Positions 32,950-52,153 of a DNA stretch of 64,000 nt are shown here, piece by piece. Numbering within the stretch: the first letter of the stretch is position 1; each line of letters opens with the position of its first letter. The stretch is from the IMG/VR virus record IMGVR_UViG_3300029798_000001. One strand, given 5' to 3'. Under the pieces are notes generated by a model. It did not search any database. It saw only the letters and a list, made by a program, of their open reading frames with translations, and was not told the origin of the DNA. Position numbers and translations under genes: made by a program. The DNA is from a virus. Taxonomy: Duplodnaviria; Caudoviricetes.

Positions 32950-34671
32950 ATGACCCAAGATAACTTAACTGCTAAACAACTCGGACCAGATGGGCAAAGC
33001 CAATATGCCGTTTTTCTCCCGGCCATCAGTGGCTTCTATGCTACTTACATAGGTAAACAGCGTGATCCTGTTAATGGTCCATATGTAGATCCCAAAACCC
33101 GCATGCCCGCTGGTATGAAAGATATGGAAATGATGAACTGGCTTAATAGTTCCAAAGGCCTATTTCCATACAAATGGTCCTTGTACTCGGGTGGCCACGC
33201 CAACTTAGACCTTACTAAGCAAGACTGGTCTGAAGACATGGTTCGTAATTGCGAACCCGGCACAGTCATGTTAGGTGACTCGGGTGGATTCCAGATTGCC
33301 AAAGGCTTATGGGAAGGTGAGTGGCGTGATCCAACTAGCCCTGCGGTGTTAGCAAAGATGGTCGAACTCAAGGCCAACGGGATCGAACATGTGCTAGATC
33401 TTAAACCAGACGGCACCGCAAAGCATGATAAAAATGGCAACAAAAAGTATGCCAAAATTGATCATGTTAAGAACTACCAGAACTTGCTAGATGCCGCACA
33501 GAAGAAACGAGAAGCAGTGGTTAAGTGGTTAGATGGTGTTTCAGATTATGGCATGACCCTAGATATACCAACTTGGGTTATACATGACAAGAATGCCAGC
33601 GACAAGTGTGGTATTACTACACTAGAAGAAGCAGTGGCCGCAACCAAGTATAATAATGATTACTATATGCGTCATCGTAAGGGTGCTCGGAACGGTGGCA
33701 TGAAGGTGTTGAATGTTCTACAAGGTGCTAACCATGCCGATGCTGATCGTTGGTATGATACTATGAAACACTATTGTGATCCTACTGTATATCCAGACAC
33801 ACACTTTGATGGTTGGTCCATGGGCGGTCAGAACATGTGTGATGTGCATTTGGTATTACGCAGACTTGTGGCACTACGGCATGATGGATTACTTAAAGAA
33901 GGTGTCCATGATTGGATGCACTTCCTAGGCACAAGTAAATTAGAATGGGCAGTATTACTCACAGACATTCAACGAGCTGTTCGCAAGTATGTTAACCCAA
34001 GTTTTACTATTAGTTTTGACTGTGCTAGTCCATTCCTTGCTACTGCCAATGGACAAGTGTATCACCACATTGATCTGCCACACAACGACAAATGGTGTTA
34101 TCGTATGAGTCCTATTGCTGATGATAAAAAGTATAGCACAGACACACGCCCATATGGTCAAGCGGTGGTGGCAGATGGATTGGTTGATCACTTTGATGAA
34201 AGTCCAATTAGTCTACAGTTACAAATGAAAGATGTTTGTTATTACCAACCCGGCATGTTAAACAAAATTGGCAAAGAAGGTAAGACATCGTGGGATAGTT
34301 TTAGTTACGCATTATTAATGGGCCATAATGTTTGGATGCACCTAGAAGCGGTTCAGCGGGCCAATCGTGAATATGATAACGGATCATATCCTGCTATGAT
34401 GTGGGATCAAAACGGTGATCATACACGATTTAAAGATATAGTTGAAGCTATTTTTGCTACTCCAGATCGTGCGGAAGCCGAAGCCATTATCGAAAGTTAT
34501 GACCGCTACTGGATGGACATTGTAGGTACTCGTGGGTTCAAAGGTAAGAAAGCCAAAAATGCACACAGCCAATTTAATGCATTGTTTGACGAAGTCGCTC
34601 CGGCACACGGCGAAAGTGAAGACGAAATAGAATTTGACGAATCAAAATTAAATAATTTAGAGGCCCTATGA
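32950..34671 (+). CDS. TGT-fold transglycosylase, DpdA-like
   Basis: DSGGFQI, TLDIP, VLQG, SMGG, HFLG and SFDCASP motifs of the tRNA-guanine transglycosylase barrel, with insertions. Confidence 0.75.
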   Translation: MTQDNLTAKQLGPDGQSQYAVFLPAISGFYATYIGKQRDPVNGPYVDPKTRMPAGMKDMEMMNWLNSSKGLFPYKWSLYSGGHANLDLTKQDWSEDMVRNCEPGTVMLGDSGGFQIAKGLWEGEWRDPTSPAVLAKMVELKANGIEHVLDLKPDGTAKHDKNGNKKYAKIDHVKNYQNLLDAAQKKREAVVKWLDGVSDYGMTLDIPTWVIHDKNASDKCGITTLEEAVAATKYNNDYYMRHRKGARNGGMKVLNVLQGANHADADRWYDTMKHYCDPTVYPDTHFDGWSMGGQNMCDVHLVLRRLVALRHDGLLKEGVHDWMHFLGTSKLEWAVLLTDIQRAVRKYVNPSFTISFDCASPFLATANGQVYHHIDLPHNDKWCYRMSPIADDKKYSTDTRPYGQAVVADGLVDHFDESPISLQLQMKDVCYYQPGMLNKIGKEGKTSWDSFSYALLMGHNVWMHLEAVQRANREYDNGSYPAMMWDQNGDHTRFKDIVEAIFATPDRAEAEAIIESYDRYWMDIVGTRGFKGKKAKNAHSQFNALFDEVAPAHGESEDEIEFDESKLNNLEAL

Positions 34672-34874
34672 ATACCCATTTAGAACATAGATTAACGCAT
34701 TTAGAAAAAGAACATGTACAGTTAGATAAGCGTATTGATGGGTTAGAAGCAACCGGTGTGTTTGACGATACTGTTTTAGAAGTTTTGAAGAAGCAACGGT
34801 TGCATATTAAAGACGAAATTGTTAAAATTAAACTTAAGATGGCCTATGATACCGGTGCTAACGAAAGTGACTAA
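34668..34874 (+). CDS. DUF465/YdcH-like small coiled-coil protein
   Basis: LEKEHVQLDKRI...LKKQRLHIKDEI. Confidence 0.7.
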   Translation: MNTHLEHRLTHLEKEHVQLDKRIDGLEATGVFDDTVLEVLKKQRLHIKDEIVKIKLKMAYDTGANESD

Positions 34875-35939
34875 TTGAACCGCAAAAACTTTTGTGCTGC
34901 TCCGTGGGCTGGACTTAGCTTAGATCCAGATGGTCAAGCTAAACTTTGTTGTATTAGTCAAGATCGAGTTCCATTGCAGGAGTTTGGTCATGCAAAATCT
35001 TTGTCTAAGTTTGTAGAAATTCGGCAGGCGTTTATTAACGACCAACAACACACAAATTGTAGTGCTTGCTGGCAACGCGAAGAAGTTAATACTAATTGGG
35101 AAAGTCGTCGTAGCATTTATCAACATGATGATTTTCATCATAATCTCAATTCGGCCACAGATTTTCAACTTGAACATTTAGATTTGCGCTGGAGCAATAC
35201 TTGTAATCTTAATTGTGTGTATTGCAGTTCAACTTTCAGTAGTCGATGGGCTGAATTACAAGGAAAAAAACAAAGTTTTAAAATATCCCCCACAGTGACA
35301 GATTTGGATTTGGCCAATCTTAAAATATTACAACTGGCAGGTGGTGAGCCTTTGTTGATTAAAGAAAATCTAGGTATATTGGAACGTTTAAATAAAGTAA
35401 ATCCTAATGTTAGTATCGAAGTCACAACCAATCTGACCATGATCAACAATAATCGTATCTATGATAATTTAAAGCAGTTTGATAATGTGACTTGGATAGT
35501 CAGTTTTGAATCAACTGAGAAACGGTTTGAATACATTAGAAATGGTGCTAGGTGGGATGACTTTTATAATAATTTAAATAAGTTGGCCATGGATTTTATG
35601 GACATACAAGTAACTATGGTTTATTTTCCACTAAGTGGGTTAGGCATTACTAATGCAATACAAGTGGCGTTGGAATTTACTTCTCCGGATAATGTGTTTT
35701 TGGTCAGTCAATCTGGAGGACACGGATTTGACAATCTAAGTCGCTCTGCGTTACAATACATAAAACAACATAATTTAGACCAACTAATACAGTTACCCGA
35801 TATTTTACAGACACGTTTACAAGATCAAATATTATCTGCTACAACGCAACAGACCGAAACACTATTACCGTTGTATGATAAATTTGATCAGCTTATTAAC
35901 CAAAATCACCGTTTACTTTTCTCGGAGTTATATGAATAG
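34875..35939 (+). CDS. Radical SAM protein with Cys-rich N-terminal (SPASM/twitch-like) region
   Basis: SNTCNLNCVYC (CxxxCxxC), AGGEPLL; TTG start. Confidence 0.85.
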   Translation: MNRKNFCAAPWAGLSLDPDGQAKLCCISQDRVPLQEFGHAKSLSKFVEIRQAFINDQQHTNCSACWQREEVNTNWESRRSIYQHDDFHHNLNSATDFQLEHLDLRWSNTCNLNCVYCSSTFSSRWAELQGKKQSFKISPTVTDLDLANLKILQLAGGEPLLIKENLGILERLNKVNPNVSIEVTTNLTMINNNRIYDNLKQFDNVTWIVSFESTEKRFEYIRNGARWDDFYNNLNKLAMDFMDIQVTMVYFPLSGLGITNAIQVALEFTSPDNVFLVSQSGGHGFDNLSRSALQYIKQHNLDQLIQLPDILQTRLQDQILSATTQQTETLLPLYDKFDQLINQNHRLLFSELYE

Positions 35940-36447
35940 AGCAGGACATGAAGAAATAAGTTTCTTTATAGGAACTGAAGTAGAGCACACCATTGCGTTT
36001 GGTCTGAAGACCTTGTTTGTGGTAGGCCTACAAGACGCACAGATCGTCCAACAAGAAGCTAAAAACAACAAGTGTGAGCATATCTATTTTGGTGCTGACC
36101 AAAGTTTTCCAGCCTTAGACAAGAATGATGGTGATGCTTGGCAGGAATGGGAATACATGGTGCAGTCATGCTTGGAGGCAGGATGGTTATGCACTCTTGA
36201 CCTAGATCATGCACAGGCAGAAGGCCTATTAGAATCCGGCCTAGTAGAGTTCCATAATTTTGTTCCAATGATCAGTGTCAAACTTCCCTATATAAAACAG
36301 TTTGGATACCATGCCACTCTTAAAATTGATGATAGAGATTTCGCGGCAACAAACCCAGGCGTGTGGTGTCACAGCCTACACGACTTACAAAATAAAGAAG
36401 TGTTTACTGACTGGTCTAAATATACCAAGGACGAAGTGATACAATGA
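35932..36447 (+). CDS. Hypothetical protein in the modification cluster
   Basis: Likely start ATG 35932 behind GGAG. Confidence 0.6.
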   Translation: MNRAGHEEISFFIGTEVEHTIAFGLKTLFVVGLQDAQIVQQEAKNNKCEHIYFGADQSFPALDKNDGDAWQEWEYMVQSCLEAGWLCTLDLDHAQAEGLLESGLVEFHNFVPMISVKLPYIKQFGYHATLKIDDRDFAATNPGVWCHSLHDLQNKEVFTDWSKYTKDEVIQ

Positions 36448-37028
36448 AGAATCCTACAAAAGTTAAAGTTTTTAAACTTGCCGGTCAATTGATCGGGCAA
36501 GAATTACCTACTAATCAAGGCGGACATGCCGGTCGTGCCGCTGAAGATTTGGTCGAACAATTACTAGGCATGTCTCTTAACAGAGGTAAAGGCACTGATG
36601 TTAAAATCTGGGGCTGGGAAATTAAAACTAGAAAACGTACAGCCACCAGTGCGCAAACAGTATGCACCGTAAGTACAAATGATGTTAAGATATTACCATA
36701 CAAACTAAGTCCAGTGTATGAAAAATTCCAACAACAGTTAAGGATTTATACTAATGCATTAGACATAATCGACGAAGCAATAGTAGTCGACTTTGATCAA
36801 CCTCACATACAAGATTTAATTGAAAAAGCATACGAGCATGGTAGGAAACAGATTATTAACAATCCTGATATAGGATATACTGAATATTCTGGCCACTGGG
36901 GATACTTTGAACAATGTCATTTACCAAATTCCACAGCATACTCTTTTAGGATTAGCGGTGCTGATATGGACAAGTTAGAAGATATGGCACAATCTACATA
37001 CAATGAATTATTTGAGGAGGCAGAATAA
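36444..37028 (+). CDS. PD-(D/E)xK restriction-endonuclease-like nuclease
   Basis: GRAAE...GTD...WEIKT pattern, similar to the MutH/Sau3AI/NaeI-type core. Confidence 0.55.
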   Translation: MKNPTKVKVFKLAGQLIGQELPTNQGGHAGRAAEDLVEQLLGMSLNRGKGTDVKIWGWEIKTRKRTATSAQTVCTVSTNDVKILPYKLSPVYEKFQQQLRIYTNALDIIDEAIVVDFDQPHIQDLIEKAYEHGRKQIINNPDIGYTEYSGHWGYFEQCHLPNSTAYSFRISGADMDKLEDMAQSTYNELFEEAE

Positions 37029-37375
37029 TGAGAAATTGGTTAAGACAGAAATTAATTAATATATTAATAGACGATGGCTCAGAGCCCGAGAAGAATGCCC
37101 GGCAACGACCTGCCACAATAAATCGTGCAAATCGAGGTAGTGGTAGTATTAGTGTTTGCTTGGATAACGGAGTTGATGATAGCCCAAGTGGAATTGATCT
37201 TCCGGATCCTATTGTGTTTAAGGTACAGGCAGTATCTGGAGGAACAGTGGTAGAAACTAAGTGGTACGACTACAAAAAAGACGAGCAACGGGTTAAACTG
37301 CATATCATCACCCAAGAGGAAAACTTATCCGAATCTATTGGTAAAATTGTAACTATGGAACTACTACAAAAATGA
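37028..37375 (+). CDS. Hypothetical protein
   Basis: Coupled ORF. Confidence 0.6.
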   Translation: MRNWLRQKLINILIDDGSEPEKNARQRPATINRANRGSGSISVCLDNGVDDSPSGIDLPDPIVFKVQAVSGGTVVETKWYDYKKDEQRVKLHIITQEENLSESIGKIVTMELLQK

Positions 37376-37815
37376 TACAAGAAGAACGCAACACCGTAGA
37401 AAGAGTTATAGCAGCTGCAGATAGGAAAATCTGGGTGACTTTCAAGAAGGAAGGAATCCATCGTTATCCTGCTGCCGCGACAGATCCGTTATTATGCACC
37501 GCTGGTGAATATGATGTTAGCTTTTTGGCTAATCCGCACAGACATATTTTCTGGTTTAAAGTTTGGATAGATGTATTTCATTCTAATAGAGATTTGGAAT
37601 TTATTCAATTTAAGCGTTGGTTAGAGAGTTTATATAGTAAAGATATTTTACAATTAGATTTTAAAAGCGTAGAGATGATTGCCGATGACCTATATATACA
37701 AATAGCCGATCGCTATCCTAATCGTGCTGTAGTAATTGAAGTATCCGAAGACGGCGAGAACGGATGCTCCATTAGTTATAACCTTACTCGTCCAACACAA
37801 TCAATTGTAATTTAA
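37372..37815 (+). CDS. QueD-like T-fold protein, DpdL-type (candidate CDG decarboxylase)
   Basis: LANPHRHIF matches LxxxHRHxF; terminal VSEDGENG T-fold motif; lacks the QueD catalytic Cys. Confidence 0.7.
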   Translation: MIQEERNTVERVIAAADRKIWVTFKKEGIHRYPAAATDPLLCTAGEYDVSFLANPHRHIFWFKVWIDVFHSNRDLEFIQFKRWLESLYSKDILQLDFKSVEMIADDLYIQIADRYPNRAVVIEVSEDGENGCSISYNLTRPTQSIVI

Positions 37816-37825
37816 AGGAAACATC

Positions 37826-38053
37826 ATGGGCAAACCCCAACACCGTGTAAACCCAAGAGCTCTTCAAGCATTTGAAGATTTGTCAACCTACTTGGAATTC
37901 TGCGTAAACTACGGATATCGTTATAACGAAGCCGACTTGTATAACTTTAAGAGTTATGCATGGCAACAGTACAACAAGTTTACACAAGGTAAGAACGCCA
38001 AGAACATGTGGGAAGAAGATACCCGCAGATTCTCAGGATATCGCCGTGCGTAA
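37826..38053 (+). CDS. Hypothetical protein
   Basis: 75-aa ORF with RBS AAGGA. Confidence 0.6.
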   Translation: MGKPQHRVNPRALQAFEDLSTYLEFCVNYGYRYNEADLYNFKSYAWQQYNKFTQGKNAKNMWEEDTRRFSGYRRA

Positions 38054-39248
38054 GTTATTCTACATGGGGATTGAAAAAATAGAATCCCGTTACACTTTAC
38101 AACTAACTGAATGGAATCGGCGTGTATTTGATCGCCGAGGATTAGATGTTGTGTATGTTGATGGTGCAAACATTGACAATACACAGAGTATCTCAGTCGG
38201 ACAAGTGTTAGATGCACACGGTCGTAGTTACTTTAGTATGAGTCAAATGATGAATCTTGTTAAGATGATGAAAGCAGGAGAAGTTACAAGCGACGATATT
38301 ATCTACTTTGAAGACATGTTTACTGTTGGTATTGAAAGCCTACCATATATCCTTGATCAAATAGATCCAAAGTATAGGCCAAAGATTTTTGTTAGATGTT
38401 TGGCCCAATCGGTGGATCCGGATGACTTTGTTCATGTGTGGGGCATGGCGGAATGGATGTCGACTTATGAAAAAATGGTCAACTGTTTTGTTACGGGCGT
38501 CTTAGCCACTAACGAAGAGATGGTGGCTCATATGCGTATTGCCGGGTGGTCAGCTCCTATCTACAATATTTCAGGCCTGGCATTTGGCAAGGAAGAAGTT
38601 CTAGAGCGTATAGGTGGCTCGCAAAATATTCGACCGTTTGACCAACGTAAAATGCGTGTGGGCTTTGCCGCTAGGTTTGACCAAGAGAAGCAACCAGGAT
38701 TCTTTATGGACTTAATTGAGATGTATTATAGTCAAGGTCGTCATAAGGATATTGAATTTGCTGTGTTCCAAGGTGGCCCATTACGCAGTAATAATCCTGA
38801 ATATATTGATCGGGCTCGTCGATTAGAAGCAGAAGGTCGACTTAAAATTTATGAAGGGTTAAAGAAAAATGACTACTATAATTTACTCAATGATACTCGT
38901 GTTTTGTTTAATTGCGCTTTACAAGACTGGGTCTCAAACACCGTTTCTGAAGCTGATACTCTTGGAAGTAATGTGCTTTATCCTGCTTATCGAAGTTTCC
39001 CAGAGACTTTTGCAGATGATCCAAACCGCTTATATGTCCCTTGGAGCATTAATGATGCTTATCACAAGTTAGAAAACTTGTTACAGGAACCCCATCACAA
39101 CCAGGGCTTGATTAGTGACTGGACTGATGGCACCGTAGATCGAGTTGTAGACATCTTAGAAGGCAAGGGCGAATCTTGGAATCGCGCAGGCAATCGTTAT
39201 CGTGATCATGTAAGTCAAGCCAAGTATCAACTAAGGAATAATAAATGA
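38046..39248 (+). CDS. GT-B fold glycosyltransferase
   Basis: FAARFDQEKQP and QDWVSNTVSEAD motifs; likely GTG start at 38046. Confidence 0.75.
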   Translation: MRKLFYMGIEKIESRYTLQLTEWNRRVFDRRGLDVVYVDGANIDNTQSISVGQVLDAHGRSYFSMSQMMNLVKMMKAGEVTSDDIIYFEDMFTVGIESLPYILDQIDPKYRPKIFVRCLAQSVDPDDFVHVWGMAEWMSTYEKMVNCFVTGVLATNEEMVAHMRIAGWSAPIYNISGLAFGKEEVLERIGGSQNIRPFDQRKMRVGFAARFDQEKQPGFFMDLIEMYYSQGRHKDIEFAVFQGGPLRSNNPEYIDRARRLEAEGRLKIYEGLKKNDYYNLLNDTRVLFNCALQDWVSNTVSEADTLGSNVLYPAYRSFPETFADDPNRLYVPWSINDAYHKLENLLQEPHHNQGLISDWTDGTVDRVVDILEGKGESWNRAGNRYRDHVSQAKYQLRNNK

Positions 39249-40198
39249 AGGTAATGGTAACTGGGGCCGCTGGATATATCGGCGGCGAAACGCTATTAAA
39301 ATTAGTGGATGCCGGGCACGAGGTGTTAGGGGTTGATATTCGCATGCCACCGGAGTATTTGTTAAGGGTGCTAGGAATCTGGTGGCACACTGGTGATTTT
39401 GCTGGCGAGGTTGGCCTAGAAACTATTAAAATGTTTCAACCTGAGGTAATTATCCATTGTGCTGGTACTAGCCTAGTAGGGCCTAGCGTACTCAATCCTA
39501 GATTGTATTATGATAATAATTTTGTTAAAACTAAAATATTATTAGATTATCTTATTGATAATAAGTTAAATCATATTCGAGTTATTTTTAGTTCTAGTGC
39601 CGCTGTGTACGGTGAACCTATAATGACACCATGTGATGAAGTAGATCCTACCTTACCGGTAAGTCCATATGGCGAAAGCAAGTTAATGATCGAGTGGATG
39701 CTATCTAATTACGCTCGGTCTTATGATTTAAATTATGTAGCATTTCGTTACTTTAATGCCTGTGGTGCAGATAGTCAAGGGCGACACGGGCAAGAACCTG
39801 GAGCGACACATATTATTGCCAGAGTACTGGAAGCTATTAAAAACGATCAAGATTTTACTTTGTACGGTACTCGGTATCCTACACCAGATGGTACTTGTAT
39901 TCGTGATTATATTCATGTGGAGGATTTAGCTGCCGCACATATTAGAGCAGTAGAAAAAGATATTACAGCAGGAATTTATAATCTTGGAAATAATACAGGC
40001 CACAGCAATCTTGAAATTATCCAGGCCGCTGCAAGAATTACAAACAAGGATGTGGGTGTATTGCATGGAGAACCAAGGACGGGCGATCCAGCGATGTTAA
40101 CCGCCCGTGCTGATAAATTCCAAAAATTATCTGGGTGGGTTCCTACATTTGGGTTAGATAGTATTATACAGCACGCCTGGAGCTGGTATAATAGATGA
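39245..40198 (+). CDS. galE: UDP-glucose 4-epimerase
   Basis: TGAAGYIG, SSSAAVYG, YGESK, FRYFNACGA and DGTCIRDYIHVEDLA. Confidence 0.9.
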   Translation: MKVMVTGAAGYIGGETLLKLVDAGHEVLGVDIRMPPEYLLRVLGIWWHTGDFAGEVGLETIKMFQPEVIIHCAGTSLVGPSVLNPRLYYDNNFVKTKILLDYLIDNKLNHIRVIFSSSAAVYGEPIMTPCDEVDPTLPVSPYGESKLMIEWMLSNYARSYDLNYVAFRYFNACGADSQGRHGQEPGATHIIARVLEAIKNDQDFTLYGTRYPTPDGTCIRDYIHVEDLAAAHIRAVEKDITAGIYNLGNNTGHSNLEIIQAAARITNKDVGVLHGEPRTGDPAMLTARADKFQKLSGWVPTFGLDSIIQHAWSWYNR

Positions 40199-40788
40199 GT
40201 TTTCAAACACTATTTGATTTTGAATTGGCATTAGCCAAATATACCGGCGCACCGTATGCGGTTGTTACTGATGGATGTACCCACGCATTGGAATTATGCT
40301 TTAGGCATGATCAAATAAAAAAAACAGCATTTACACCTTTTACCTATCTTAGCATTCCTATGCTAATGCATCATTTAGGTATTGAATACCAGTTTCATAA
40401 CGAAAGTCATAGACAACATACATGGACCGGTGAGTATCATTTTGAAGGCACTAGAATTTGGGATAGTGCTCGCAGACTAGAACACGGAATGTATAAGAAG
40501 GGATTTATGCAATGCCTAAGTTTTGGCTGGACTAAACCATTGCAAATAGGCAAGGTTGGTGCTATTTTATTAGATGATTATGAAGCATACAAAAAGTTTA
40601 GTCGTCAACGAGCAGACGGGCGCGATCTAAATATTCCATGGGAAAAAGAAACACAGTTAATCTTGGGTTACCATTACTGCCCTACATTAGAATTATGTGC
40701 TAAGGGGTTAGAGTTGTTACCAACTATTATTCCTCAATCACAATCTGCAGTTTATCCAGACTGTAGAAAAATTTCATTTGCACCTTGA
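40195..40788 (+). CDS. Short DegT/DnrJ-like PLP-dependent protein
   Basis: AVVTDGCTHAL, DSARR and CLSFGWTKPL (PLP Lys); shorter than the full-length enzymes. Confidence 0.7.
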   Translation: MSFQTLFDFELALAKYTGAPYAVVTDGCTHALELCFRHDQIKKTAFTPFTYLSIPMLMHHLGIEYQFHNESHRQHTWTGEYHFEGTRIWDSARRLEHGMYKKGFMQCLSFGWTKPLQIGKVGAILLDDYEAYKKFSRQRADGRDLNIPWEKETQLILGYHYCPTLELCAKGLELLPTIIPQSQSAVYPDCRKISFAP

Positions 40789-40833: not shown

Positions 40834-41580
40834 ATGAAATTAGAACCAGTAACACTAGATAACATCGACGAAGGTGGTTACCAAGATCACGAAATGAACT
40901 TAGCCGACTCTATCCGCCGTCAAATGAAGCGTGATAAGAAACGCTTTTGGGCAGGTGATAACATTAGCGATTATGTAGACGATTATCGCAAGCAAATATT
41001 AATCAACGAAGCAACTGTAGCATTTGAAAGTGTATTAGATGCATTGTTAATTGATCGTGAAAACGATCCTAACTCAAAAGGCACAGCACATCGCTTGGCC
41101 AAGATGTATTACAACGAAATTATGGGAGGTCGATATGATCCAGCTCCTAGCGCAACAGCTTTTCCAAACGATTCAGCGGATAGATATGAAGGTATGTTGG
41201 TTGTGCGTAGCGAGTTGCGTAGTATGTGTAGCCATCATCATCAACCTGTGTCTGGTGTTGCTTACATTGGAATTATTGCAGCCAATAAACTTATTGGCCT
41301 TAGCAAATATACTCGTATCGCTCAGTGGTGTGCTCGTCGTGGCACACTTCAAGAAGAACTATGTAATGACATTGCCCGCGAAATAATGCGAGCAACTGAT
41401 AGTGAGAATGTCGGTGTGTATATACAAGCTCAACATGGGTGTTGTGAAAATAGGGGCATAATGGCACACTCTAGTCTAACACAGACCACAGTATTAAAAG
41501 GTGTATTTCAAAGAGACCCAGGAACTAAGAAAGAGTTCATGGACAATATCAAACTACAACAGGACTTTGCCCCTAGATGA
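40834..41580 (+). CDS. folE: GTP cyclohydrolase I
   Basis: SMCSHH, GLSKY, LQE and HGCCENRG motifs. Confidence 0.95.
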   Translation: MKLEPVTLDNIDEGGYQDHEMNLADSIRRQMKRDKKRFWAGDNISDYVDDYRKQILINEATVAFESVLDALLIDRENDPNSKGTAHRLAKMYYNEIMGGRYDPAPSATAFPNDSADRYEGMLVVRSELRSMCSHHHQPVSGVAYIGIIAANKLIGLSKYTRIAQWCARRGTLQEELCNDIAREIMRATDSENVGVYIQAQHGCCENRGIMAHSSLTQTTVLKGVFQRDPGTKKEFMDNIKLQQDFAPR

Positions 41581-45420: not shown

Positions 45421-45421
45421 T

Positions 45422-45790
45422 ATGACAACATTACTAGACACACAAGAAGCAGGCATTGCACCCTGGATTGATAAGATAAAAGATCATCCATTGGTTGCAG
45501 TATACCTAGACCGATATCCTTGCACTCCCGGACATAGATTATATGTGCCTAAAGACGATAATCCAAATTGGATTGTGCAGGCCATGGAACAAGCCCTAGC
45601 CGACGGTAATCATATGGTAGAACAAGGTGAGTGTGATGGGTTTAACATTGGTTTTAATTCTGGCACAGCAGCTGGACAGACTGTTATGTATCCTCACGTT
45701 CATCTTATTCCACGCAGAGCGGGCGATGTAGAAGATCCAGTAGGTGGCGTTAGAAATACAATACCCGGTAAAGGAAACTATAAGAAATGA
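45422..45790 (+). CDS. HIT-family nucleotide hydrolase
   Basis: AGQTVMYPHVHLIPR. Confidence 0.9.
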   Translation: MTTLLDTQEAGIAPWIDKIKDHPLVAVYLDRYPCTPGHRLYVPKDDNPNWIVQAMEQALADGNHMVEQGECDGFNIGFNSGTAAGQTVMYPHVHLIPRRAGDVEDPVGGVRNTIPGKGNYKK

Positions 45791-46203: not shown

Positions 46204-46208
46204 ACAAC

Positions 46209-46275: not shown

Positions 46276-46330
46276 ATATATTTAAAACTACCATAGTATG
46301 ATAAATAAAGTTAGACTATGGAGAGTTGAA

Positions 46331-47179: not shown

Positions 47180-47180
47180 A

Positions 47181-47678
47181 ATGACATACCCAGCAATTCA
47201 AAAAAAGTATATGAGCACAAAAGAATATAAAGATGCCTTTCCTGTGGCATATCGCCAATGGCGAGATGATGGCAAATGTTCTATCGTTCACGGCTATGCG
47301 TTAACCGTTCGATTCTTTTTTGAATCGGATGAGTTAGATGTCCGGAACTGGGTTCAAGATTACGGCGGACTTCGCCCACTTAAAGAGCAATTAGAAGAAT
47401 GGTTTGATCATCGTTTATTAGTAGCCATTGACGACCCTCATAAAGATTTATTAGTAGCATTACACGATGCCGGTATTGCTAAGATTACAGAAGTAGAAAA
47501 GACCGGATGCGAAGGTATTGCTGACTTCTTATACGAATATGTAAACACTATCTTCTTACCAAGTTATGGTAAAGCAGAAGCAGAGCGTATTTGGTGTTGT
47601 CGAGTAGAGGTTCGTGAAACACAAAGCAATATGGCAATGCGGCAAGGGCATCGAGAGTGGAATGAATTCACAGATTAA
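47181..47678 (+). CDS. queD: 6-carboxy-5,6,7,8-tetrahydropterin synthase
   Basis: CSIVHGY, WVQDYGGL, FDHRLL, GCEGIA and VRETQSN. Confidence 0.85.
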   Translation: MTYPAIQKKYMSTKEYKDAFPVAYRQWRDDGKCSIVHGYALTVRFFFESDELDVRNWVQDYGGLRPLKEQLEEWFDHRLLVAIDDPHKDLLVALHDAGIAKITEVEKTGCEGIADFLYEYVNTIFLPSYGKAEAERIWCCRVEVRETQSNMAMRQGHREWNEFTD

Positions 47679-47687
47679 GAAAAATAT

Positions 47688-47912: not shown

Positions 47913-48007
47913 AGATATGGTGCTACTGTGTTGAAGTTCGTGAAACACAAAGCAATATGGCATTTCGTGAAAGCCACAGAGAGTGGTGCGAAGATTTATT
48001 TGCTTAA
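47909..48007 (+). pseudogene. Orphaned 3' end of a second queD allele
   Basis: KIWCYCVEVRETQSNMAFRESHREW versus queD RIWCCRVEVRETQSNMAMRQGHREW; 27-nt identity between 47610-47636 and 47936-47962. Confidence 0.85.
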
Positions 48008-48034
48008 TAAACGGCGCATATAAATATTCGCACT

Positions 48035-48853
48035 ATGTCAAATGAATACAAAATAGCAGTTATACTACCTACACGGGGCCGCACTGCGGCATTAACACAC
48101 AGTCTCGTCGGACTATTAGAAAAAGCCGCGGATCTGGACCAGATACAGGTATTGTTAGGCTTGGACACGGACGATACAGTAGGCATTAAACATTTCCAAG
48201 AATCATTACAACCCCAGTTAGATGATATGGGCGTGGCCTATACCGCCATGACATTCGAACCCATGGGCTACAGTCGTCTTAACGAATACATCAATACCCT
48301 GAGTAAAGAGTCTAGTGCAGATTGGATCTTTTTTTGGAACGATGATGCCTTGATGGAGAGTGACAATTGGGATTTAGAAATTGTTAAACGCACCGGTGAA
48401 TTTAAATTACTAGCAGTTCACACCCATAACGACCATCCTTATAGTATATTTCCAATCGTTCCAAGAGAATGGTTAGATGTCGTCGGCCATTTAAGTTTAC
48501 ACAGTATGACTGATGCTTGGCTAAGTCAAATTGCTTTCATGATAGATATTTGGGAACGTATCGATGTGCATGTTGTCCATGATCGGGCCGACCTTACTGG
48601 TAATAATTTAGATGCTACTTATAAACAAAGAGAACTACTAGAAGGCAATCCTAGTAATCCTAGAGATTTTCATAATCCTAGCATGACTGTATTGCGTATG
48701 CAAGAATGTGAAAAATTATCAATTTATATGAAATCGATAGGATTAGATACTACCTGGTGGAAAAATGTTAAACTTAGCAAACAAGACCCTTGGGAAAAAT
48801 TAAACCTTAACGATCCAAATGGCCAAATGAGACAGTTTCAATTTAAACCCTGA
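48035..48853 (+). CDS. GT2-family glycosyltransferase
   Basis: VILPTRGR, LDTDD and FFWNDD; TATAAATA at 48019. Confidence 0.8.
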   Translation: MSNEYKIAVILPTRGRTAALTHSLVGLLEKAADLDQIQVLLGLDTDDTVGIKHFQESLQPQLDDMGVAYTAMTFEPMGYSRLNEYINTLSKESSADWIFFWNDDALMESDNWDLEIVKRTGEFKLLAVHTHNDHPYSIFPIVPREWLDVVGHLSLHSMTDAWLSQIAFMIDIWERIDVHVVHDRADLTGNNLDATYKQRELLEGNPSNPRDFHNPSMTVLRMQECEKLSIYMKSIGLDTTWWKNVKLSKQDPWEKLNLNDPNGQMRQFQFKP

Positions 48854-49566
48854 TGAAATACCAAGTCACCACCCGGCATGGTCAAATGATACTGCCCTAC
48901 GCTAATGATTACATTGCACAACAATTAATTAGTAATGGCGAGTATGAATGGTATGTAGTAGATATTATTAAACAGCTTAGTCAAGGACATGCCACAGGAA
49001 TCATATTAGATATTGGGGCAAATATTGGAACAATGTGTTTGCCGTTAGCAAGAGATTTTCCTAATTATCAAATACATGCATTTGAAATACAGCCAAGATT
49101 GCTCAAAACTATAAAAGAAAATATCCAGCTCAATGGATTAACTAATATTGTATTATACGAACACGGGCTTGGAAATATAGTTGATATTATATCCATCAGA
49201 CAACCGGTTTATGATTCTGCTACCAATATCGGAGCACTCAGTTTAAATCCATTGGTGTGGGAACATAGTGATATTAGTGTTGGGCACGGTGATGCTATTG
49301 ACATTAATGTCGTTCCTCTTGATTCTATAAAGTTTGATATTCCTATTAGATGTATAAAATTAGATGTCGAAGGATATGAACGATTGGTGATTGAGGGTGC
49401 TGTTGAAACTCTTAAACAACATAACTACCCGCCAATAGTTTACGAACTATGGGGATACAATGCTTGGTGGAAAGAGGAAGCTAAAAAATTAAAAGACCTA
49501 TTGATTCAGTTAGGATATACTGATTTTAAACAAATCGATGATACCGGAATTGCTATACACCCATGA
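48853..49566 (+). CDS. FkbM-family methyltransferase
   Basis: LDIGANIG, AFE and IKLDVEGYE. Confidence 0.85.
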   Translation: MKYQVTTRHGQMILPYANDYIAQQLISNGEYEWYVVDIIKQLSQGHATGIILDIGANIGTMCLPLARDFPNYQIHAFEIQPRLLKTIKENIQLNGLTNIVLYEHGLGNIVDIISIRQPVYDSATNIGALSLNPLVWEHSDISVGHGDAIDINVVPLDSIKFDIPIRCIKLDVEGYERLVIEGAVETLKQHNYPPIVYELWGYNAWWKEEAKKLKDLLIQLGYTDFKQIDDTGIAIHP

Positions 49567-50288
49567 AAAATTATCTTGTAAAAAGTCTTTTTAAAATTAA
49601 AGATCCTGATTGGAAAATATTAGATCGAAGTTACGAAAAAAATATGTATGAAAACTACATAGAGATGCATCGTCTTAGTGTTGCCAGTTATAAAAAATAT
49701 TTAAAAGGCGACTGGGAATTAAAATTTATAACTGGTAATTGTGATCATATTAATCAGGCTTTTGAAAATACTTTCTGGGCTATACATGATTTGTGGCACA
49801 AAGAACCATGTAATATTCTGTATACCGACCCAGATACAGTAGCCATCAAGGATGTTGATCTGTGGGATCAATACGACCGTTTTATGATGTTTAATCATAC
49901 AGATCCAAAGTCATTGACTACTAATAACATATACAATAAACAGTTTGATAATTTTTTCAATGCTGGTGTACGATATTTTCCATCTACAATGACCGCAGAT
50001 ACTTGGAAATTAGGGACAGCGATTGCAAAAAACTGGGATTATACAACCTACAATACTGAACAAATTATCCTAAATGACATGTTATGGAATCAAGGTATCG
50101 GCCTAAAAGAAATTATAGACCCAACTATGGCTTATCAGGTTTTAACTTTAGACGAAGCGCAAAGTGATATATGGAATAACAGTAAGTTGAGCCAGGCAAA
50201 AATTCTACATTTTCATAGCAGCAGAGATTCGTTTTCCCGGCGAGAAATTATGAAACAAATTTCTCAAGCCCACGGAACAATTTGTTGA
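49563..50288 (+). CDS. Nucleotide-diphospho-sugar transferase-like protein
   Basis: LYTDPD (DxD), FNAGV, EQIILN and ILHF. Confidence 0.65.
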   Translation: MKNYLVKSLFKIKDPDWKILDRSYEKNMYENYIEMHRLSVASYKKYLKGDWELKFITGNCDHINQAFENTFWAIHDLWHKEPCNILYTDPDTVAIKDVDLWDQYDRFMMFNHTDPKSLTTNNIYNKQFDNFFNAGVRYFPSTMTADTWKLGTAIAKNWDYTTYNTEQIILNDMLWNQGIGLKEIIDPTMAYQVLTLDEAQSDIWNNSKLSQAKILHFHSSRDSFSRREIMKQISQAHGTIC

Positions 50289-50313
50289 CTTTATCTTAAT
50301 ATTGCGTTATAAT
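50285..50313 (+). promoter_or_regulatory. sigma70 promoter
   Basis: TTGACT-17-TATAAT. Confidence 0.8.
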
Positions 50314-50319
50314 AGTAAC

Positions 50320-50868
50320 ATGAAAAAAGTATATTACTCCTGGCAAGATGTTGAGAATCAGACTCAAGAGATCCTACGTCAGCTACAGCGTGATGCTTGG
50401 GTTCCTGATTATGTAGTCGGACTCACCCGGGGCGGATTGGTTCCGGCTAACCTAATTAGTCAGTACTTAGAATGCCCAATGGAAACTCTTAAAGTAAGCC
50501 TACGAGATGATAATAGCTCTCCCGAAAGTAACTTATGGATGGCCGAAGAAGCATTTGGGTATGTTCCAAAAGATGAACAGATATTATCTGAATTTGATTA
50601 TGCTATTACAGCCAAAAAAATCCTCATTATTGATGACATCAATGATAGCGGTGCCACATTAAATTGGATCAAGCAAGATTGGATGAGTGGGTGCTTGCCA
50701 GGGCATGAGCGTTGGAAAGGTGTTTGGGGTAATAATGTCCGTGTCGCCACCTTAGTAGATAACGAAGCAAGTGCTAGTGAATTAAATGTTAGTTATTCAG
50801 CCGTCGGCCTAAATAAGGCTGAAGAAGATTCGTGGATTGTTTTTCCTTGGGAAGATTGGTGGAAGTGA
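50320..50868 (+). CDS. Type I phosphoribosyltransferase (Gpt/Hpt-like)
   Basis: VVGLTRGGLVP, PRPP loop ILIIDDINDSGAT and WIVFPWE. Confidence 0.85.
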   Translation: MKKVYYSWQDVENQTQEILRQLQRDAWVPDYVVGLTRGGLVPANLISQYLECPMETLKVSLRDDNSSPESNLWMAEEAFGYVPKDEQILSEFDYAITAKKILIIDDINDSGATLNWIKQDWMSGCLPGHERWKGVWGNNVRVATLVDNEASASELNVSYSAVGLNKAEEDSWIVFPWEDWWK

Positions 50869-51296
50869 GATTACTAGCTAAAATTATATTGATTTTTTTA
50901 TTTGGTCTAAATACATCCTGGGCCGACACCTGGATTAGCATTGGCGGTGGCACTTATCATACTTGTGAAACTTGTGGGTATAACGGTGTTAATCCGGGAT
51001 TAGGAATACAAACCGACTATTCAAAAGACTTGCGTTTTGTGGCAGGTGGATATTATAATAGCTACTATAAAGCTAGTTTTTATGGTGGCGGTGCTTGGCA
51101 ACCAATACAGTACGAAATAATTAAAGTTGGAATAGTTGGCGGTGTAATATCAAACTATAATAATCTACGGGTGCCACTAATGGCATTACCCGTTATTAGT
51201 ATAGAAGGTGAGCTACTAGGTATTGACATTATGGGTATTCCGACAATAACAAACCATTCTGGTATTATAACTGCAAATTTAAAATTTAAATTATGA
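50865..51296 (+). CDS. Small outer-membrane beta-barrel (PagP-like)
   Basis: Signal peptide, NPGLG and GYYNSY strands, terminal FKL; GTG start. Confidence 0.45.
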   Translation: MRLLAKIILIFLFGLNTSWADTWISIGGGTYHTCETCGYNGVNPGLGIQTDYSKDLRFVAGGYYNSYYKASFYGGGAWQPIQYEIIKVGIVGGVISNYNNLRVPLMALPVISIEGELLGIDIMGIPTITNHSGIITANLKFKL

Positions 51297-52153
51297 AAAT
51301 TAAAGTAAGCGAATTATTTTATAGTCTACAAGGCGAGGGTCGCTTTGTTGGAGTGCCTAGTGTATTCTTACGCACTTATGGTTGCAATTTTACCTGCTCC
51401 GGATTCGGTTGCAAGCCCGGCGAAAAATCTACAGGCGCAGACGATGTAGCTGAAGTGGTTCATATGTATAATAACTTCTTAGAGTTGCCACTGGTTGAAA
51501 CCGGCTGTGATAGCTACGCATCTTGGCATCCAGCATTCAAGCATCTGAGCCCTACATACGAAACAGCAGATCTAGTAGAAAAGATGCTAGAACTAACTCC
51601 TAACAATATGTGGGCCCAGAATAATGGCAATGATGTACATTTGGTAATTACAGGTGGTGAACCTTTGCTAGGGTGGCAACGTGCCTATGCAGAATTATTA
51701 AGTCATCCACGTATGGCAGATTTAAAGAATATTACATTTGAAACAAATGGTACTCAAGAATTACACGCAGACTTTAAACTGTATTTGATTAAATGGGCTC
51801 AAGAGGTTCCGGGTCGCGAAGTTACATTTAGTGTTAGTGCCAAATTAAGTGCGTCGGGAGAAACTTGGGCGGATGCAATTAAGCCAGAGATTGTGAAGAG
51901 CTATCAATTATATGGACACACCTATCTTAAGTTTGTTGTTGAAACCGAAGAACATGTGGATGAAGCTGTTCGTGCTGTGGATGCGTTTCGCAAAGGTGGG
52001 TTTACTGGTGTAGTTTATTTGATGCCGCAAGGCGGTGTCGTTAAACCGTATGAAAGTAATAAACTAAACATTGCCAACATCTGCGTTGAGCGTGGGTGGA
52101 ACTATAGTCCACGTCTACACGTTGACCTTTGGGGCAACGGATGGGGCAAGTAA
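51293..52153 (+). CDS. queE: 7-carboxy-7-deazaguanine synthase (radical SAM)
   Basis: FYSLQGEG..VG.PSVFLR..GCNFTC...CD, ITGGEPL, ETNGT and SPRLH. Confidence 0.9.
   Translation: MKIKVSELFYSLQGEGRFVGVPSVFLRTYGCNFTCSGFGCKPGEKSTGADDVAEVVHMYNNFLELPLVETGCDSYASWHPAFKHLSPTYETADLVEKMLELTPNNMWAQNNGNDVHLVITGGEPLLGWQRAYAELLSHPRMADLKNITFETNGTQELHADFKLYLIKWAQEVPGREVTFSVSAKLSASGETWADAIKPEIVKSYQLYGHTYLKFVVETEEHVDEAVRAVDAFRKGGFTGVVYLMPQGGVVKPYESNKLNIANICVERGWNYSPRLHVDLWGNGWGK

What the first reader, a model, noticed from the sequence alone, without database searches (positions are those of the whole stretch)
32950..52153. Dispersed 7-deazaguanine pathway pointing to unsubstituted 7-deazaguanine (dDG) in DNA
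Seen: a TGT-fold gene (32950), a QueD-like protein with LxxxHRHxF (37372), folE (40834), queD (47181) and queE (51293), with no queC or queF in the window. Established: FolE, QueD and QueE make CDG; DpdA-type transglycosylases insert deazaguanines into phage DNA; as I recall, the LxxxHRHxF QueD paralog (DpdL) is linked to CDG decarboxylation to dDG. Inference: this genome is dDG- (or dCDG-) modified to resist restriction, using an unusually long (573-aa) transglycosylase.
Basis: partly seen in the sequence, partly recalled or inferred. Interest (0 to 1): 0.75.

Follow-up and report, generated by a model that had tools for sequence, protein, structure and literature searches.

The report
Deazaguanine DNA module with built-in sugar transferase
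This uncultured lake jumbo phage carries the published gene set for swapping guanine in its DNA for 7-deazaguanine, and a sugar-transferring enzyme with a sugar-activating partner is locked inside that set, so the final base may be a sugar-bearing purine that no paper I found describes.

Summary
Observation confirmed. All five genes are real. The 573-aa protein has a TGT/DpdA fold, with Z 15-18 to arcTGT, TGT and the DNA insertase DpdA. The 147-aa protein is a DpdL homolog (LANPHRHIF). FolE, QueD and QueE are clear. I found no QueC or QueF in the window, nor in two relatives' contigs that are 89-92% complete.

Interpretation partly supported. The gene set matches the published signature for unsubstituted 7-deazaguanine (dDG) from Cellulophaga phage phiST. 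However, the pathway is only "dispersed" here because variable genes were inserted. In 31 of 31 relatives with enough flank it is one block: DpdA, a 171-aa unknown, DpdL, a 75-aa protein, a GT4-fold glycosyltransferase, GalE, a mini-DegT, FolE and QueD. A purine phosphoribosyltransferase and QueE follow where the contig reaches.

The glycosyltransferase also sits beside DpdL or DpdA in PA5oct, ACP17, BUCT-ZZ01, Xanthomonas X1, BCSR5 and, weakly, Phosso. It is absent from phiST, the phage group in which dDG was measured. Plain dDG is therefore possible, but a sugar-decorated derivative is at least as likely.

The transglycosylase is not an oddity. It belongs to a large unannotated family, mostly 420-620 aa long.

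This scan has already flagged the same glycosyltransferase-in-module pattern in at least 99 other genomes. I found no paper describing it. Everything here is genomic inference; no chemistry was done.

The parts
32950..34671 (+). DpdA-like transglycosylase (573 aa), directly after the DNA polymerase and sliding-clamp genes
   Evidence: TGT fold. hhalign to the ACP17 424-aa DpdA gives 96.6% probability, E 6e-10; to the BUCT-ZZ01 416-aa protein 93%; to phiST DpdA3 78%. D110 (in GDSGGFQ), D205, H324, G327 and D357 (in FDC) are invariant or nearly so across 76 family members. No cysteine is invariant.
35932..36447 (+). Y: conserved 171-aa protein of unknown family (the ORF may start at 35875)
   Evidence: Present in 31/31 relatives right after DpdA. 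48% identical to a PA5oct-group protein and 32% to ACP17 ASD50402, which lies directly upstream of the ACP17 DpdA. No Pfam or PDB match.
37028..37375 (+). 115-aa protein, in about half of the relatives
   Evidence: 14/31 relatives; no family match.
37372..37815 (+). DpdL, a QueD paralog with LxxxHRHxF; proposed 7-carboxy-7-deazaguanine (CDG) decarboxylase
   Evidence: paper. H30, H56 and H58 are kept in all DpdL rows and the QueD cysteine is replaced by L52. Present in 31/31 relatives.
37826..38053 (+). 75-aa conserved protein between DpdL and the glycosyltransferase
   Evidence: 31/31 relatives; no family match.
38046..39248 (+). X: GT4-type (GT-B fold) glycosyltransferase. The start is uncertain: the longest ORF begins at 37956, while relatives are 392-405 aa long.
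   Evidence: AlphaFold2 pLDDT 76. Foldseek hits to BshA, MshA, PimA and glycogen synthase, E 1e-9 to 1e-10. Glycos_transf_1 is matched below threshold by 18/25 members. R210, K215, D294 and E302 are invariant. Present in 31/31 relatives. Homologs lie next to DpdL or DpdA in PA5oct, ACP17, BUCT-ZZ01, X1, BCSR5 and Phosso.
39245..40198 (+). UDP-glucose 4-epimerase GalE
   Evidence: TIGR01179 at 292.5 bits, cut-off 262.3. Present in 31/31 relatives directly after X.
40195..40788 (+). Mini DegT-like protein (197 aa)
   Evidence: Pfam DegT N-terminal part, 36 bits. ESM Atlas lists virus-only clusters of about 197-aa DegT proteins. Present in 30/31 relatives.
40834..41580 (+). FolE, GTP cyclohydrolase I
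   Evidence: 30/31 relatives.
47181..47678 (+). QueD (CxxxHGY form)
   Evidence: 64% identical to ACP17 QueD.
50302..50868 (+). 6-oxopurine (xanthine/guanine-type) phosphoribosyltransferase, two genes upstream of QueE
   Evidence: Pfam Pribosyltran, 58.8 bits. PDB purine PRTases at 2.5e-8. Xanthine PRTase model at 45 bits, below its cut-off. A homolog lies directly next to QueE in BUCT-ZZ01 (1e-17) and in PA5oct EST35_0321 (3e-7). It is 0.6 kb upstream of QueE in G001.
51293..52153 (+). QueE, CDG synthase (radical SAM)
54558..54947 (+). 129-aa protein that follows QueE in other lineages too
   Evidence: Homologs lie downstream of QueE in PA5oct (EST35_0324), Phosso and G001. No family match.
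34875..35939 (+). Twitch-domain radical SAM gene: a variable insert, not a core part
   Evidence: NF033640 at 196 bits; only 4/31 relatives, in varying positions.
36444..37028 (+). 194-aa nuclease-like ORF: a variable insert, not a core part
   Evidence: 3/31 relatives; no family match.

Best explanation
This is a QueC-independent 7-deazaguanine DNA-modification module of the DpdL type, extended by a sugar-transfer branch.

Proposed steps:
1. FolE, QueD and QueE turn GTP into 7-carboxy-7-deazaguanine (CDG). This is established chemistry for these families.
2. DpdL processes CDG. The published proposal is decarboxylation to 7-deazaguanine; it is unproven.
3. The TGT-fold DpdA-like enzyme, encoded next to the polymerase and clamp genes, exchanges guanine in phage DNA for that base. 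This is inferred from the fold, the conserved aspartates and PA5oct's restriction-resistant DNA.
4. The GT4 glycosyltransferase then adds a sugar to the deazaguanine, either in DNA or on the free base. GalE would supply a 4-epimerised UDP-hexose, possibly amino-modified by the mini-DegT. This step rests on synteny alone, and the acceptor atom is unknown.
5. The purine phosphoribosyltransferase beside QueE most simply recycles the guanine released by base exchange into GMP and GTP, the pathway's own precursor. This is inference.

My odds: about 0.75 that phage DNA carries a QueC-independent deazaguanine, and about 0.45 that the final base bears a sugar.
For: - All five known parts are verified.
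- QueC and QueF are absent from the window and from relatives that are 89-92% complete.
- The core order DpdA>Y>DpdL>p75>X>GalE>miniDegT>FolE holds in 30-31 of 31 relatives with at least 6 kb of flank, and in the 317-kb contig G001.
- X homologs sit inside or beside the deazaguanine genes of unrelated cultured phages. In ACP17 and PA5oct X lies between DpdA and DpdL. In Xanthomonas X1 it is just upstream of DpdA. In BUCT-ZZ01 and Phosso it follows DpdL. In BCSR5 it lies beside a 446-aa protein, 2.7 kb from DpdL.
- X has a GT4 fold and invariant R210, K215, D294 and E302. From my own knowledge of GT4 enzymes, these fit the donor-binding R/K pair and the (D/E)x7E motif.
- GalE passes NCBI's equivalog cut-off.
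- There is precedent for glycosyltransferases acting on 7-deazaguanine bases: HuiG in huimycin biosynthesis. The ESM Atlas also lists QTMAN-like clusters among X's neighbours, which is a lead only.
Against: - There is no chemistry for this phage or any X-bearing relative.
- Unsubstituted 7-deazaguanine offers no obvious O or N acceptor in the major groove, so the sugar step needs either unusual chemistry (a C-glycoside, an ester on CDG, or N2) or a different DpdL product.
- X is absent genome-wide from phiST, RHph_I1_18 and Ahp1. DpdL systems therefore work without it, and X could serve another target.
- X scores below Pfam thresholds, and its model is only moderately confident (pLDDT 76).
- DpdL plus DpdA from ACP17, an X-bearing phage, gave no product in E. 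coli, so even the basal steps are unverified.
- Palindromes such as ACGT (observed/expected 0.23), GTGCAC and AAGCTT are still avoided. Protection is incomplete or context-limited.
Confidence: 0.45

Rival explanations
1. Plain dDG. DpdL decarboxylates CDG and the DpdA-like enzyme inserts unsubstituted 7-deazaguanine. The glycosyltransferase, GalE and mini-DegT serve something else, such as a cell-envelope or protein target, and merely share the operon.
For: - The gene set equals the published dDG signature.
- phiST, with DpdL, is about 100% dDG (302,000 per 10^6 nucleotides).
- 7-Deazaguanine has no evident sugar acceptor.
- The window holds other sugar genes that look unrelated to DNA: FkbM methyltransferases, a UDP-glucose dehydrogenase, and a possible GT-A-like ORF judged only by my reading of its sequence.
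Against: - X, GalE and mini-DegT sit strictly between DpdL and FolE in 30-31 of 31 relatives.
- X lies between DpdA and DpdL in ACP17 and PA5oct.
- phiST, the phage group with measured dDG, lacks X.
- The UDP-glucose dehydrogenase is not linked to the module in G001, and NadE found no match there, whereas X and GalE stay inside it.
Confidence: 0.3
2. Nucleotide-level route. The purine phosphoribosyltransferase next to QueE converts CDG or 7-deazaguanine plus PRPP into a ribonucleotide, as in tubercidin biosynthesis. That nucleotide is reduced and phosphorylated to a dNTP, and the phage polymerase incorporates it. The TGT-fold protein then has a secondary or different role.
For: - A 6-oxopurine phosphoribosyltransferase is adjacent or near to QueE in three lineages: this family, BUCT-ZZ01 and PA5oct.
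- The tubercidin pathway uses CDG, a phosphoribosyltransferase and a decarboxylase, without QueC.
- The module adjoins the replication genes.
Against: - A conserved TGT-fold enzyme with intact catalytic aspartates is present in every relative.
- Cui et al. argue that all known deazaguanine DNA modifications are made after replication.
- No dedicated kinase, reductase or dGTP-removing enzyme was identified within the core block.
- The phosphoribosyltransferase is equally explained as salvage of released guanine.
Confidence: 0.1
3. tRNA target. The TGT-fold enzyme inserts the deazaguanine into tRNA (phage or host GUN-anticodon tRNAs), and the glycosyltransferase decorates it, as animal QTMAN and QTGAL glycosylate queuosine.
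For: - The fold is shared with tRNA transglycosylases; arcTGT gives the top Z of 17.9.
- The ESM Atlas lists QTMAN-like clusters near X.
Against: - PA5oct, with homologs of DpdA, X and DpdL, has restriction-resistant virion DNA.
- The gene sits in the replication module.
- No cysteine is invariant across the family, so a TGT-type zinc site (known to me from TGT structures) is not conserved family-wide.
- The QTMAN_N domain was not detected in any of 25 X members.
- DpdL phages with measured chemistry carry the base in DNA.
Confidence: 0.07
4. dCDG or another non-decarboxylated product. DpdL is not a decarboxylase, CDG itself is inserted, and its carboxyl group is the handle that X esterifies.
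For: - DpdL's activity has never been shown.
- dCDG exists in nature, in Sulfolobus virus STSV-2.
- A carboxylate would give X an acceptor.
Against: - phiST carries DpdL and has dDG with no detectable dCDG.
- DpdL keeps the metal-binding histidines, so it is probably an enzyme.
- As far as I know, GT4 enzymes are not known to form acyl glycosides.
Confidence: 0.08

Closest known systems
DpdL-type dDG system of Cellulophaga phage phiST (Cui, Hutinet et al., Nucleic Acids Res 2023, PMC10516641)
   Same: Both have FolE, QueD, QueE, a DpdL with LxxxHRHxF (34% identity), a TGT-superfamily transglycosylase and no QueC. In phiST the DNA guanines are replaced by 7-deazaguanine.
   Different: The phiST transglycosylase is the 259-aa DpdA3, related only distantly and partially (hhalign 78% probability over 82 columns). 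phiST has no X glycosyltransferase anywhere in its genome. I saw no match to GalE, mini-DegT, Y or the phosphoribosyltransferase in its 24-kb cluster region. It has a MazG-like gene next to DpdL.
Pseudomonas jumbo phage PA5oct (Wroclawvirus), genes EST35_0316-0324
   Same: PA5oct has the closest cultured homolog of the 573-aa protein (28% identity over 97%), followed by X (24%), DpdL (52%), a phosphoribosyltransferase-like gene next to QueE and the 129-aa protein's homolog. All lie beside the DNA polymerase. Y is encoded elsewhere in that genome (48%). Its virion DNA resists several restriction enzymes, which the authors read as a modified G.
   Different: The gene order differs (DpdA-X-DpdL), and no GalE or mini-DegT lies in the cluster. 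In PA5oct the chemical identity of the base is still unknown, and the DpdA, X and DpdL genes are annotated as hypothetical.
Compact operons of Acidovorax phage ACP17, Synechococcus phage BUCT-ZZ01 and Xanthomonas phage X1
   Same: DpdL (38-55% identity) and X (64% in BUCT-ZZ01) sit inside FolE/QueD/QueE/DpdA operons. ACP17 also has Y, and BUCT-ZZ01 also has the phosphoribosyltransferase beside QueE.
   Different: Their transglycosylases are a 416-437-aa type that only profile comparison links to this family. ACP17 DpdA plus DpdL gave no dDG in E. coli.
T4-type glucosylation of 5-hydroxymethylcytosine (alpha- and beta-glucosyltransferases)
   Same: Works like it in concept: a non-canonical base is placed in phage DNA and then decorated with a UDP-sugar by a GT-B-fold enzyme, as an optional second layer that some relatives lack.
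   Different: In T4 the base is a pyrimidine with a hydroxymethyl handle made at the nucleotide level. Here the base is a purine analogue, probably installed by base exchange, with no known handle. X is of GT4 type and did not match the T4 enzymes in the listed fold hits.
Glycosyltransferases acting on 7-deazaguanine bases: HuiG (huimycin) and tRNA-queuosine mannosyltransferase QTMAN
   Same: These are glycosyltransferases of the GT4 Pfam clan that attach a sugar to a 7-deazaguanine-derived base (for HuiG; Atlas lead for QTMAN).
   Different: Their substrates are a free secondary-metabolite base or queuosine in tRNA. The QTMAN_N domain is not detected in X. No direct sequence comparison with HuiG or QTMAN could be made.
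Tubercidin biosynthesis (CDG + phosphoribosyltransferase + UbiD decarboxylase, no QueC)
   Same: It uses CDG as the building block without QueC, and includes a phosphoribosyltransferase and a decarboxylation step giving an unsubstituted 7-deazapurine.
   Different: The decarboxylase there is UbiD-type and acts on the nucleotide. Here the candidate is a T-fold QueD paralog, a DNA transglycosylase is present, and the product is DNA, not an antibiotic.

Membership tests
DpdL-type dDG DNA-modification system (Cui et al. 2023) | DpdA-family transglycosylase encoded with the pathway | tested here: met
   TGT/DpdA fold with Z 15.0 to DpdA 7ui4 and 17.9 to arcTGT; hhalign 96.6% to ACP17 DpdA.
DpdL-type dDG DNA-modification system (Cui et al. 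2023) | FolE, QueD and QueE present (route to CDG) | tested here: met
   Pfam, PHROG and NCBIfam hits.
DpdL-type dDG DNA-modification system (Cui et al. 2023) | DpdL: QueD paralog with LxxxHRHxF in place of CxxxHGH | tested here: met
   LANPHRHIF at residues 52-60; aligned with phiST and ACP17 DpdL; motif as in the paper.
DpdL-type dDG DNA-modification system (Cui et al. 2023) | No QueC (and no QueF) in the genome | tested here: inconclusive
   None in the window and none in relatives 89% and 92% complete. The window's own full genome is not held.
DpdL-type dDG DNA-modification system (Cui et al. 2023) | dDG actually present in virion DNA | not testable with these tools
   Needs LC-MS/MS. The phage is uncultured.
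TGT/DpdA superfamily | TIM-barrel TGT fold | tested here: met
TGT/DpdA superfamily | Catalytic aspartates (DSGGxQ motif and the downstream nucleophile Asp) | tested here: met
   D110 in GDSGGFQ and D357 in FDC are invariant in 76 members. They align to DSGGLQ and ISYD of ACP17 DpdA. Equating them with TGT D102 and D280 rests on my own knowledge of the motifs.
TGT/DpdA superfamily | Match to the Pfam TGT model PF01702 | tested here: not met
   No hit for the protein or for any of 76 family members. Kinship is visible only by profile-profile comparison and by fold.
DpdA3 subfamily | Close kinship to phiST CGPG_00065 or the Campylobacter phage DpdA3 (about 260 aa) | tested here: inconclusive
   hhalign 77.8% probability over 82 columns only; 573 aa against 259 aa. 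The paper's supplementary lists were not available, so I cannot say whether PA5oct-type proteins were counted as DpdA3.
GT4 retaining glycosyltransferases (GT-B fold), for protein X | Two-Rossmann GT-B fold resembling GT4 enzymes | tested here: met
   BshA, MshA, PimA and glycogen synthase at E 1e-9 to 1e-10, TM 0.55-0.65.
GT4 retaining glycosyltransferases (GT-B fold), for protein X | Pfam Glycos_transf_1 above its gathering score | tested here: not met
   13.6 bits against a cut-off of 26.4 for the window's protein. 18 of 25 relatives match at E up to 1, best 5e-5.
GT4 retaining glycosyltransferases (GT-B fold), for protein X | Donor-binding R/K pair and (D/E)x7E motif | tested here: inconclusive
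   R210, K215, D294 and E302 are invariant in 25 sequences. Their mapping onto the GT4 motifs is by eye and from memory.
tRNA-queuosine mannosyltransferase QTMAN, for protein X | QTMAN_N domain (PF12038) | tested here: not met
   Not among the hits of any of 25 members at E up to 1. There is only a language-model neighbourhood lead.
Tubercidin-type nucleotide route | Phosphoribosyltransferase that accepts CDG or 7-deazaguanine, plus a UbiD decarboxylase | not tested
   A 6-oxopurine phosphoribosyltransferase is present, but its substrate cannot be told from sequence. No UbiD-family hit appeared among the ORFs scanned.

The most novel reading that the evidence does not exclude
These phages make the first natural sugar-bearing purine in DNA. 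A 7-deazaguanine is installed by a new DpdA subfamily and then glycosylated by a dedicated GT4 enzyme fed by GalE, giving a galactose-configured, possibly amino, sugar. Released guanine is recycled by a module-encoded phosphoribosyltransferase. The conserved unknowns Y (171 aa) and p75 would be new accessory factors, and DpdL may create the handle for the sugar rather than simply decarboxylate.
Probability: 0.4. Interest if true: 0.9.

Novelty: new variant of a known kind. Interest (0 to 1): 0.65.

Why it matters
All glycosylated DNA bases I know of in phages are pyrimidines (hydroxymethyl-C or hydroxymethyl-U derivatives). A sugar on a 7-deazapurine would be a new class of DNA hypermodification, with consequences for restriction, CRISPR and modification-dependent nucleases, and for sequencing these phages.

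The family is large. The transglycosylase has over 6,400 relatives in metagenomes and 1,038 representatives at the 50% clustering level, so this concerns abundant freshwater jumbo phages. PA5oct, a related phage, was effective against P. aeruginosa in airway infection models.

The analysis also points to genes missing from the published model: X, Y, p75 and the phosphoribosyltransferase. These could explain why DpdA plus DpdL alone failed in E. coli. Cultured phages with and without X exist, so the question is directly testable.

Tried and rejected
- Direct family searches on the 573-aa protein gave nothing: Pfam, PHROGs, NCBIfam and a PDB sequence profile. Only fold and profile-profile comparison worked.
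- The window's own genome is not held. Its DNA was not found in the phage collection or in IMG/VR by an exact 41-mer. QueC and QueF absence was therefore tested in relatives only.
- NadE (52444-53232) as a QueC substitute or ADG-forming amidase: rejected. It scores 164 bits to NAD synthase against 22 bits to QueC, and found no match in G001.
- The radical SAM gene (34875-35939) as the conserved about-350-aa partner seen in PA5oct and ACP17: rejected. It shows no similarity to them and is present in only 4/31 relatives. The conserved partner is X.
- The nuclease-like ORF 36444-37028 as a core part: rejected (3/31 relatives).
- X as a glycosyltransferase for hydroxymethyl-pyrimidines: a thymidylate-synthase-family gene is found in only 1 of 3 large relatives, and there it looks like ordinary ThyA. 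This is weak evidence against.
- Complex prediction of the DpdA-like protein with Y: no answer (score 0.00). It says nothing either way.
- Y: no match in Pfam, the PDB profile search or the Atlas.
- Context-specific modification (idea: sites holding GA or GG are protected, after the PA5oct paper): 6-mer palindromes with and without GA/GG do not differ significantly (p 0.11 in the window, 0.19 in G001).
- Literature: no paper in the library goes beyond Cui et al. 2023 on DpdL, and none describes a glycosylated deazaguanine in DNA. That paper's supplementary tables were not available.

Full report
**Setting.** The window comes from an uncultured freshwater jumbo phage related to T4; this is from earlier notes of this scan. 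No whole genome is held for it. Its DNA is in neither the phage collection nor IMG/VR. The region of the finding starts directly after a family-B DNA polymerase split by an intein (27143-31239), a methyltransferase-like ORF and a sliding-clamp-like gene. It therefore belongs to the replication module.

**Observation.**
- FolE (40834-41580) scores 133.5 bits to GTP cyclohydrolase I.
- QueD (47181-47678) scores 60 bits to PTPS and matches the phage QueD-like PHROG.
- QueE (51293-52153) scores 181 bits to the QueE-like PHROG.
- The 147-aa protein (37372-37815) has no Pfam hit. It is 52-65% identical to proteins of PA5oct, ACP17, RHph_I1_18 and Phosso, and 34% identical to phiST CGPG_00067.
- In the alignment it carries LANPHRHIF and three conserved histidines, with leucine where QueD has its catalytic cysteine.
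- Cui et al. 2023 named exactly this protein family DpdL, gave LxxxHRHxF as its signature, and proposed it as the CDG decarboxylase behind the dDG found in phiST.

**The 573-aa protein.**
- It matched no sequence library.
- A profile search of 1.84 billion representatives found a large family: 1,038 representatives, mostly 420-620 aa. None of 76 members hits any relevant Pfam model.
- With that alignment, AlphaFold2 gave a confident model (pLDDT 91.4).
- All 50 Foldseek rows listed are tRNA-guanine transglycosylase.
- An exhaustive structural search ranks arcTGT, QTRT2, bacterial TGT, the DNA preQ0 insertase DpdA and Cap10 first (Z 13.8-17.9), clear of generic TIM barrels at 11.6 or less.
- Profile-profile comparison links the family to the ACP17 DpdA (96.6%), a BUCT-ZZ01 protein (93%) and, weakly, phiST DpdA3 (78%).
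- The aspartates of GDSGGFQ and FDC are invariant. No cysteine is invariant, so a TGT-like zinc site is not a family feature.
- The protein is therefore a TGT/DpdA-superfamily enzyme of a distinct, unannotated subfamily. Its length is normal for that subfamily.

**Absence of QueC and QueF.** In the window the only PP-loop enzyme is a plain NAD synthase, and the other large ORFs hold neither gene. Relatives' contigs of 317 and 321 kb (89% and 92% complete) have no QueC and no QueF. The two weak QueC-model matches, in other and less complete relatives, are short N-terminal PP-loop stretches that I read as NadE-type proteins without checking.

- I compared the window with 80 related IMG/VR contigs. 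In all 31 that extend at least 6 kb past the transglycosylase gene, the order is DpdA, Y (171 aa, unknown), sometimes a 115-aa protein, DpdL, a 75-aa protein, X, GalE, a 197-aa DegT-like protein and FolE. QueD follows wherever the contig reaches (19 of 31), and a purine phosphoribosyltransferase and QueE appear in the few that reach further.
- The full 317-kb contig G001 shows the same order, with the phosphoribosyltransferase just before QueE.
- The window's "dispersed" look comes from variable inserts. These include a twitch radical SAM gene, a nuclease-like ORF, FkbM methyltransferases, a ferredoxin, an 870-aa FG-GAP protein and what I read, from its sequence only, as a GIY-YIG-like endonuclease.
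- X (about 38046-39248) folds as a GT-B, GT4-type glycosyltransferase. Its nearest structures are BshA, MshA, PimA and glycogen synthase. Pfam Glycos_transf_1 hits are below threshold, and residues that fit the GT4 donor-binding motifs are invariant.
- The next gene passes NCBI's equivalog cut-off for GalE.

**X is linked to DpdL in unrelated phages.**
- ACP17: Y, DpdA, X, DpdL, QueE.
- PA5oct: DpdA, X, DpdL, then QueE a few genes on with a phosphoribosyltransferase-like gene next to it.
- Xanthomonas X1: X, DpdA, DpdL, QueE.
- BUCT-ZZ01: QueE, phosphoribosyltransferase, a small ORF, QueD, FolE, a 447-aa protein, DpdA, DpdL, X.
- BCSR5: X beside a 446-aa protein that I did not test, 2.7 kb from DpdL.
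- Phosso: DpdL followed by a glycosyltransferase that matches the X profile weakly.
- Sources for these orders.
- X is absent genome-wide from phiST, RHph_I1_18 and Ahp1.
- DpdL systems thus come with or without X, and phiST, the only phage group with measured dDG, is of the X-less kind.
- For X-bearing phages the only experimental data are from PA5oct. Its DNA resists several restriction enzymes, and it is attacked by nucleases that recognise hypermodified DNA, including one that hits phages with modified G. The base has not been identified.
- ACP17's DpdA plus DpdL gave no dDG in E. coli, and the authors themselves suggested that further enzymes may be needed.

**Mechanism.**
- Established for the families: FolE, QueD and QueE make CDG.
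- Inferred: DpdL converts CDG (proposed decarboxylation), and the DpdA-like enzyme swaps the product for guanine in DNA.
- From synteny only: X adds a sugar supplied through GalE, perhaps with the mini-DegT. The acceptor is the weak point, because 7-deazaguanine has no obvious handle. Options are a C-glycoside at the electron-rich C7 or C8, N2 as in huimycin-type metabolites (my recollection; one search confirms only that HuiG glycosylates a deazapurine base), an ester on CDG, or a DpdL product other than 7-deazaguanine.
- The 6-oxopurine phosphoribosyltransferase near QueE in three lineages is most simply a salvage enzyme that returns displaced guanine to GMP and GTP, the pathway's precursor. 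The alternative is a tubercidin-like nucleotide route.

**Caveats.**
- No chemistry exists for this phage group.
- G-containing palindromes are still avoided: ACGT has observed/expected 0.23 in the window but 0.94 in G001, and GTGCAC, AAGCTT and AGCGCT are depleted in both. The modification is therefore partial, context-limited or not protective against some enzymes. A GA/GG context model was not significant.
- A tRNA target cannot be excluded, but the PA5oct DNA data and the replication-module position make it unlikely.

**Novelty.**
- The conserved glycosyltransferase-GalE branch, the Y and p75 unknowns, the phosphoribosyltransferase and the distinct DpdA subfamily make it a new variant.
- I found no paper describing a glycosylated deazaguanine in DNA or any follow-up on DpdL.
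- This scan has noted the same glycosyltransferase-in-module pattern in at least 99 other genomes. I reached it independently before that look-up.

Noticed in passing
window 27143-31239: The family-B DNA polymerase gene is split. The N-terminal part ends in an intein splicing domain (27143-29293). A 319-aa ORF follows (29321-30280). An ORF beginning with the end of an intein splicing domain then carries the polymerase C-terminal part (30256-31239). PA5oct's polymerase is likewise interrupted by a homing endonuclease gene.
   Followed up: partly
whole window, compared with contig G001 (L093-L108): ACGT is 4-fold under-represented in the window (62 seen, 275 expected) but normal in the 317-kb relative (0.94). 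GTGCAC, AAGCTT and AGCGCT are depleted in both. Restriction-type site avoidance persists despite the G-modification genes.
   Followed up: partly
window 34875-35939: A twitch-domain radical SAM gene (NF033640, 196 bits) is inserted between the transglycosylase and Y. It is present in only 4 of 31 relatives, at varying positions, and a 32%-identical copy lies elsewhere in G001. Function unknown.
   Followed up: partly
window 40195-40788: A 197-aa mini version of a DegT-type sugar aminotransferase. By eye it keeps an SF..TK stretch that may correspond to the PLP-lysine motif. The ESM Atlas shows large virus-only clusters of the same size (510 and 176 members).
   Followed up: partly
window 50832-51296: A small protein with a signal-peptide-like start matches the C-terminal part of a PagP-like outer-membrane PHROG. 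It sits between the phosphoribosyltransferase and QueE.
   Followed up: no
window 45422-45790: A HIT-domain protein (HVHLIP motif) lies close to QueD in G001 as well (about 0.3 kb upstream; here 1.4 kb upstream, with the endonuclease-like ORF between). It may be a nucleotide hydrolase or transferase linked to the module.
   Followed up: no
window 60984-63564: A host-like nitrogen set: a P-II-like protein, an ammonium-transporter-like membrane protein and a porin-like outer-membrane protein in a row. Judged from the translations only.
   Followed up: no
window 4236-7388: The phage encodes a DnaJ and a ClpB-type double AAA+ chaperone side by side.
   Followed up: no
window 52444-53232 and 9084-10055: An NAD synthase (NadE) and a cytidylyltransferase-like protein, possibly of NMNAT type. 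These are candidate NAD-metabolism genes and are not linked to the deazaguanine module in G001.
   Followed up: partly
window 55060-55578 and 57938-58306: A heptose-1-phosphate adenylyltransferase or glycerol-3-phosphate cytidylyltransferase-like gene; Xanthomonas X1 has a similarly annotated gene 8 kb from its DpdL. Also a MazG-like ORF, judged from its sequence only; phiST has a MazG-like gene next to DpdL.
   Followed up: no
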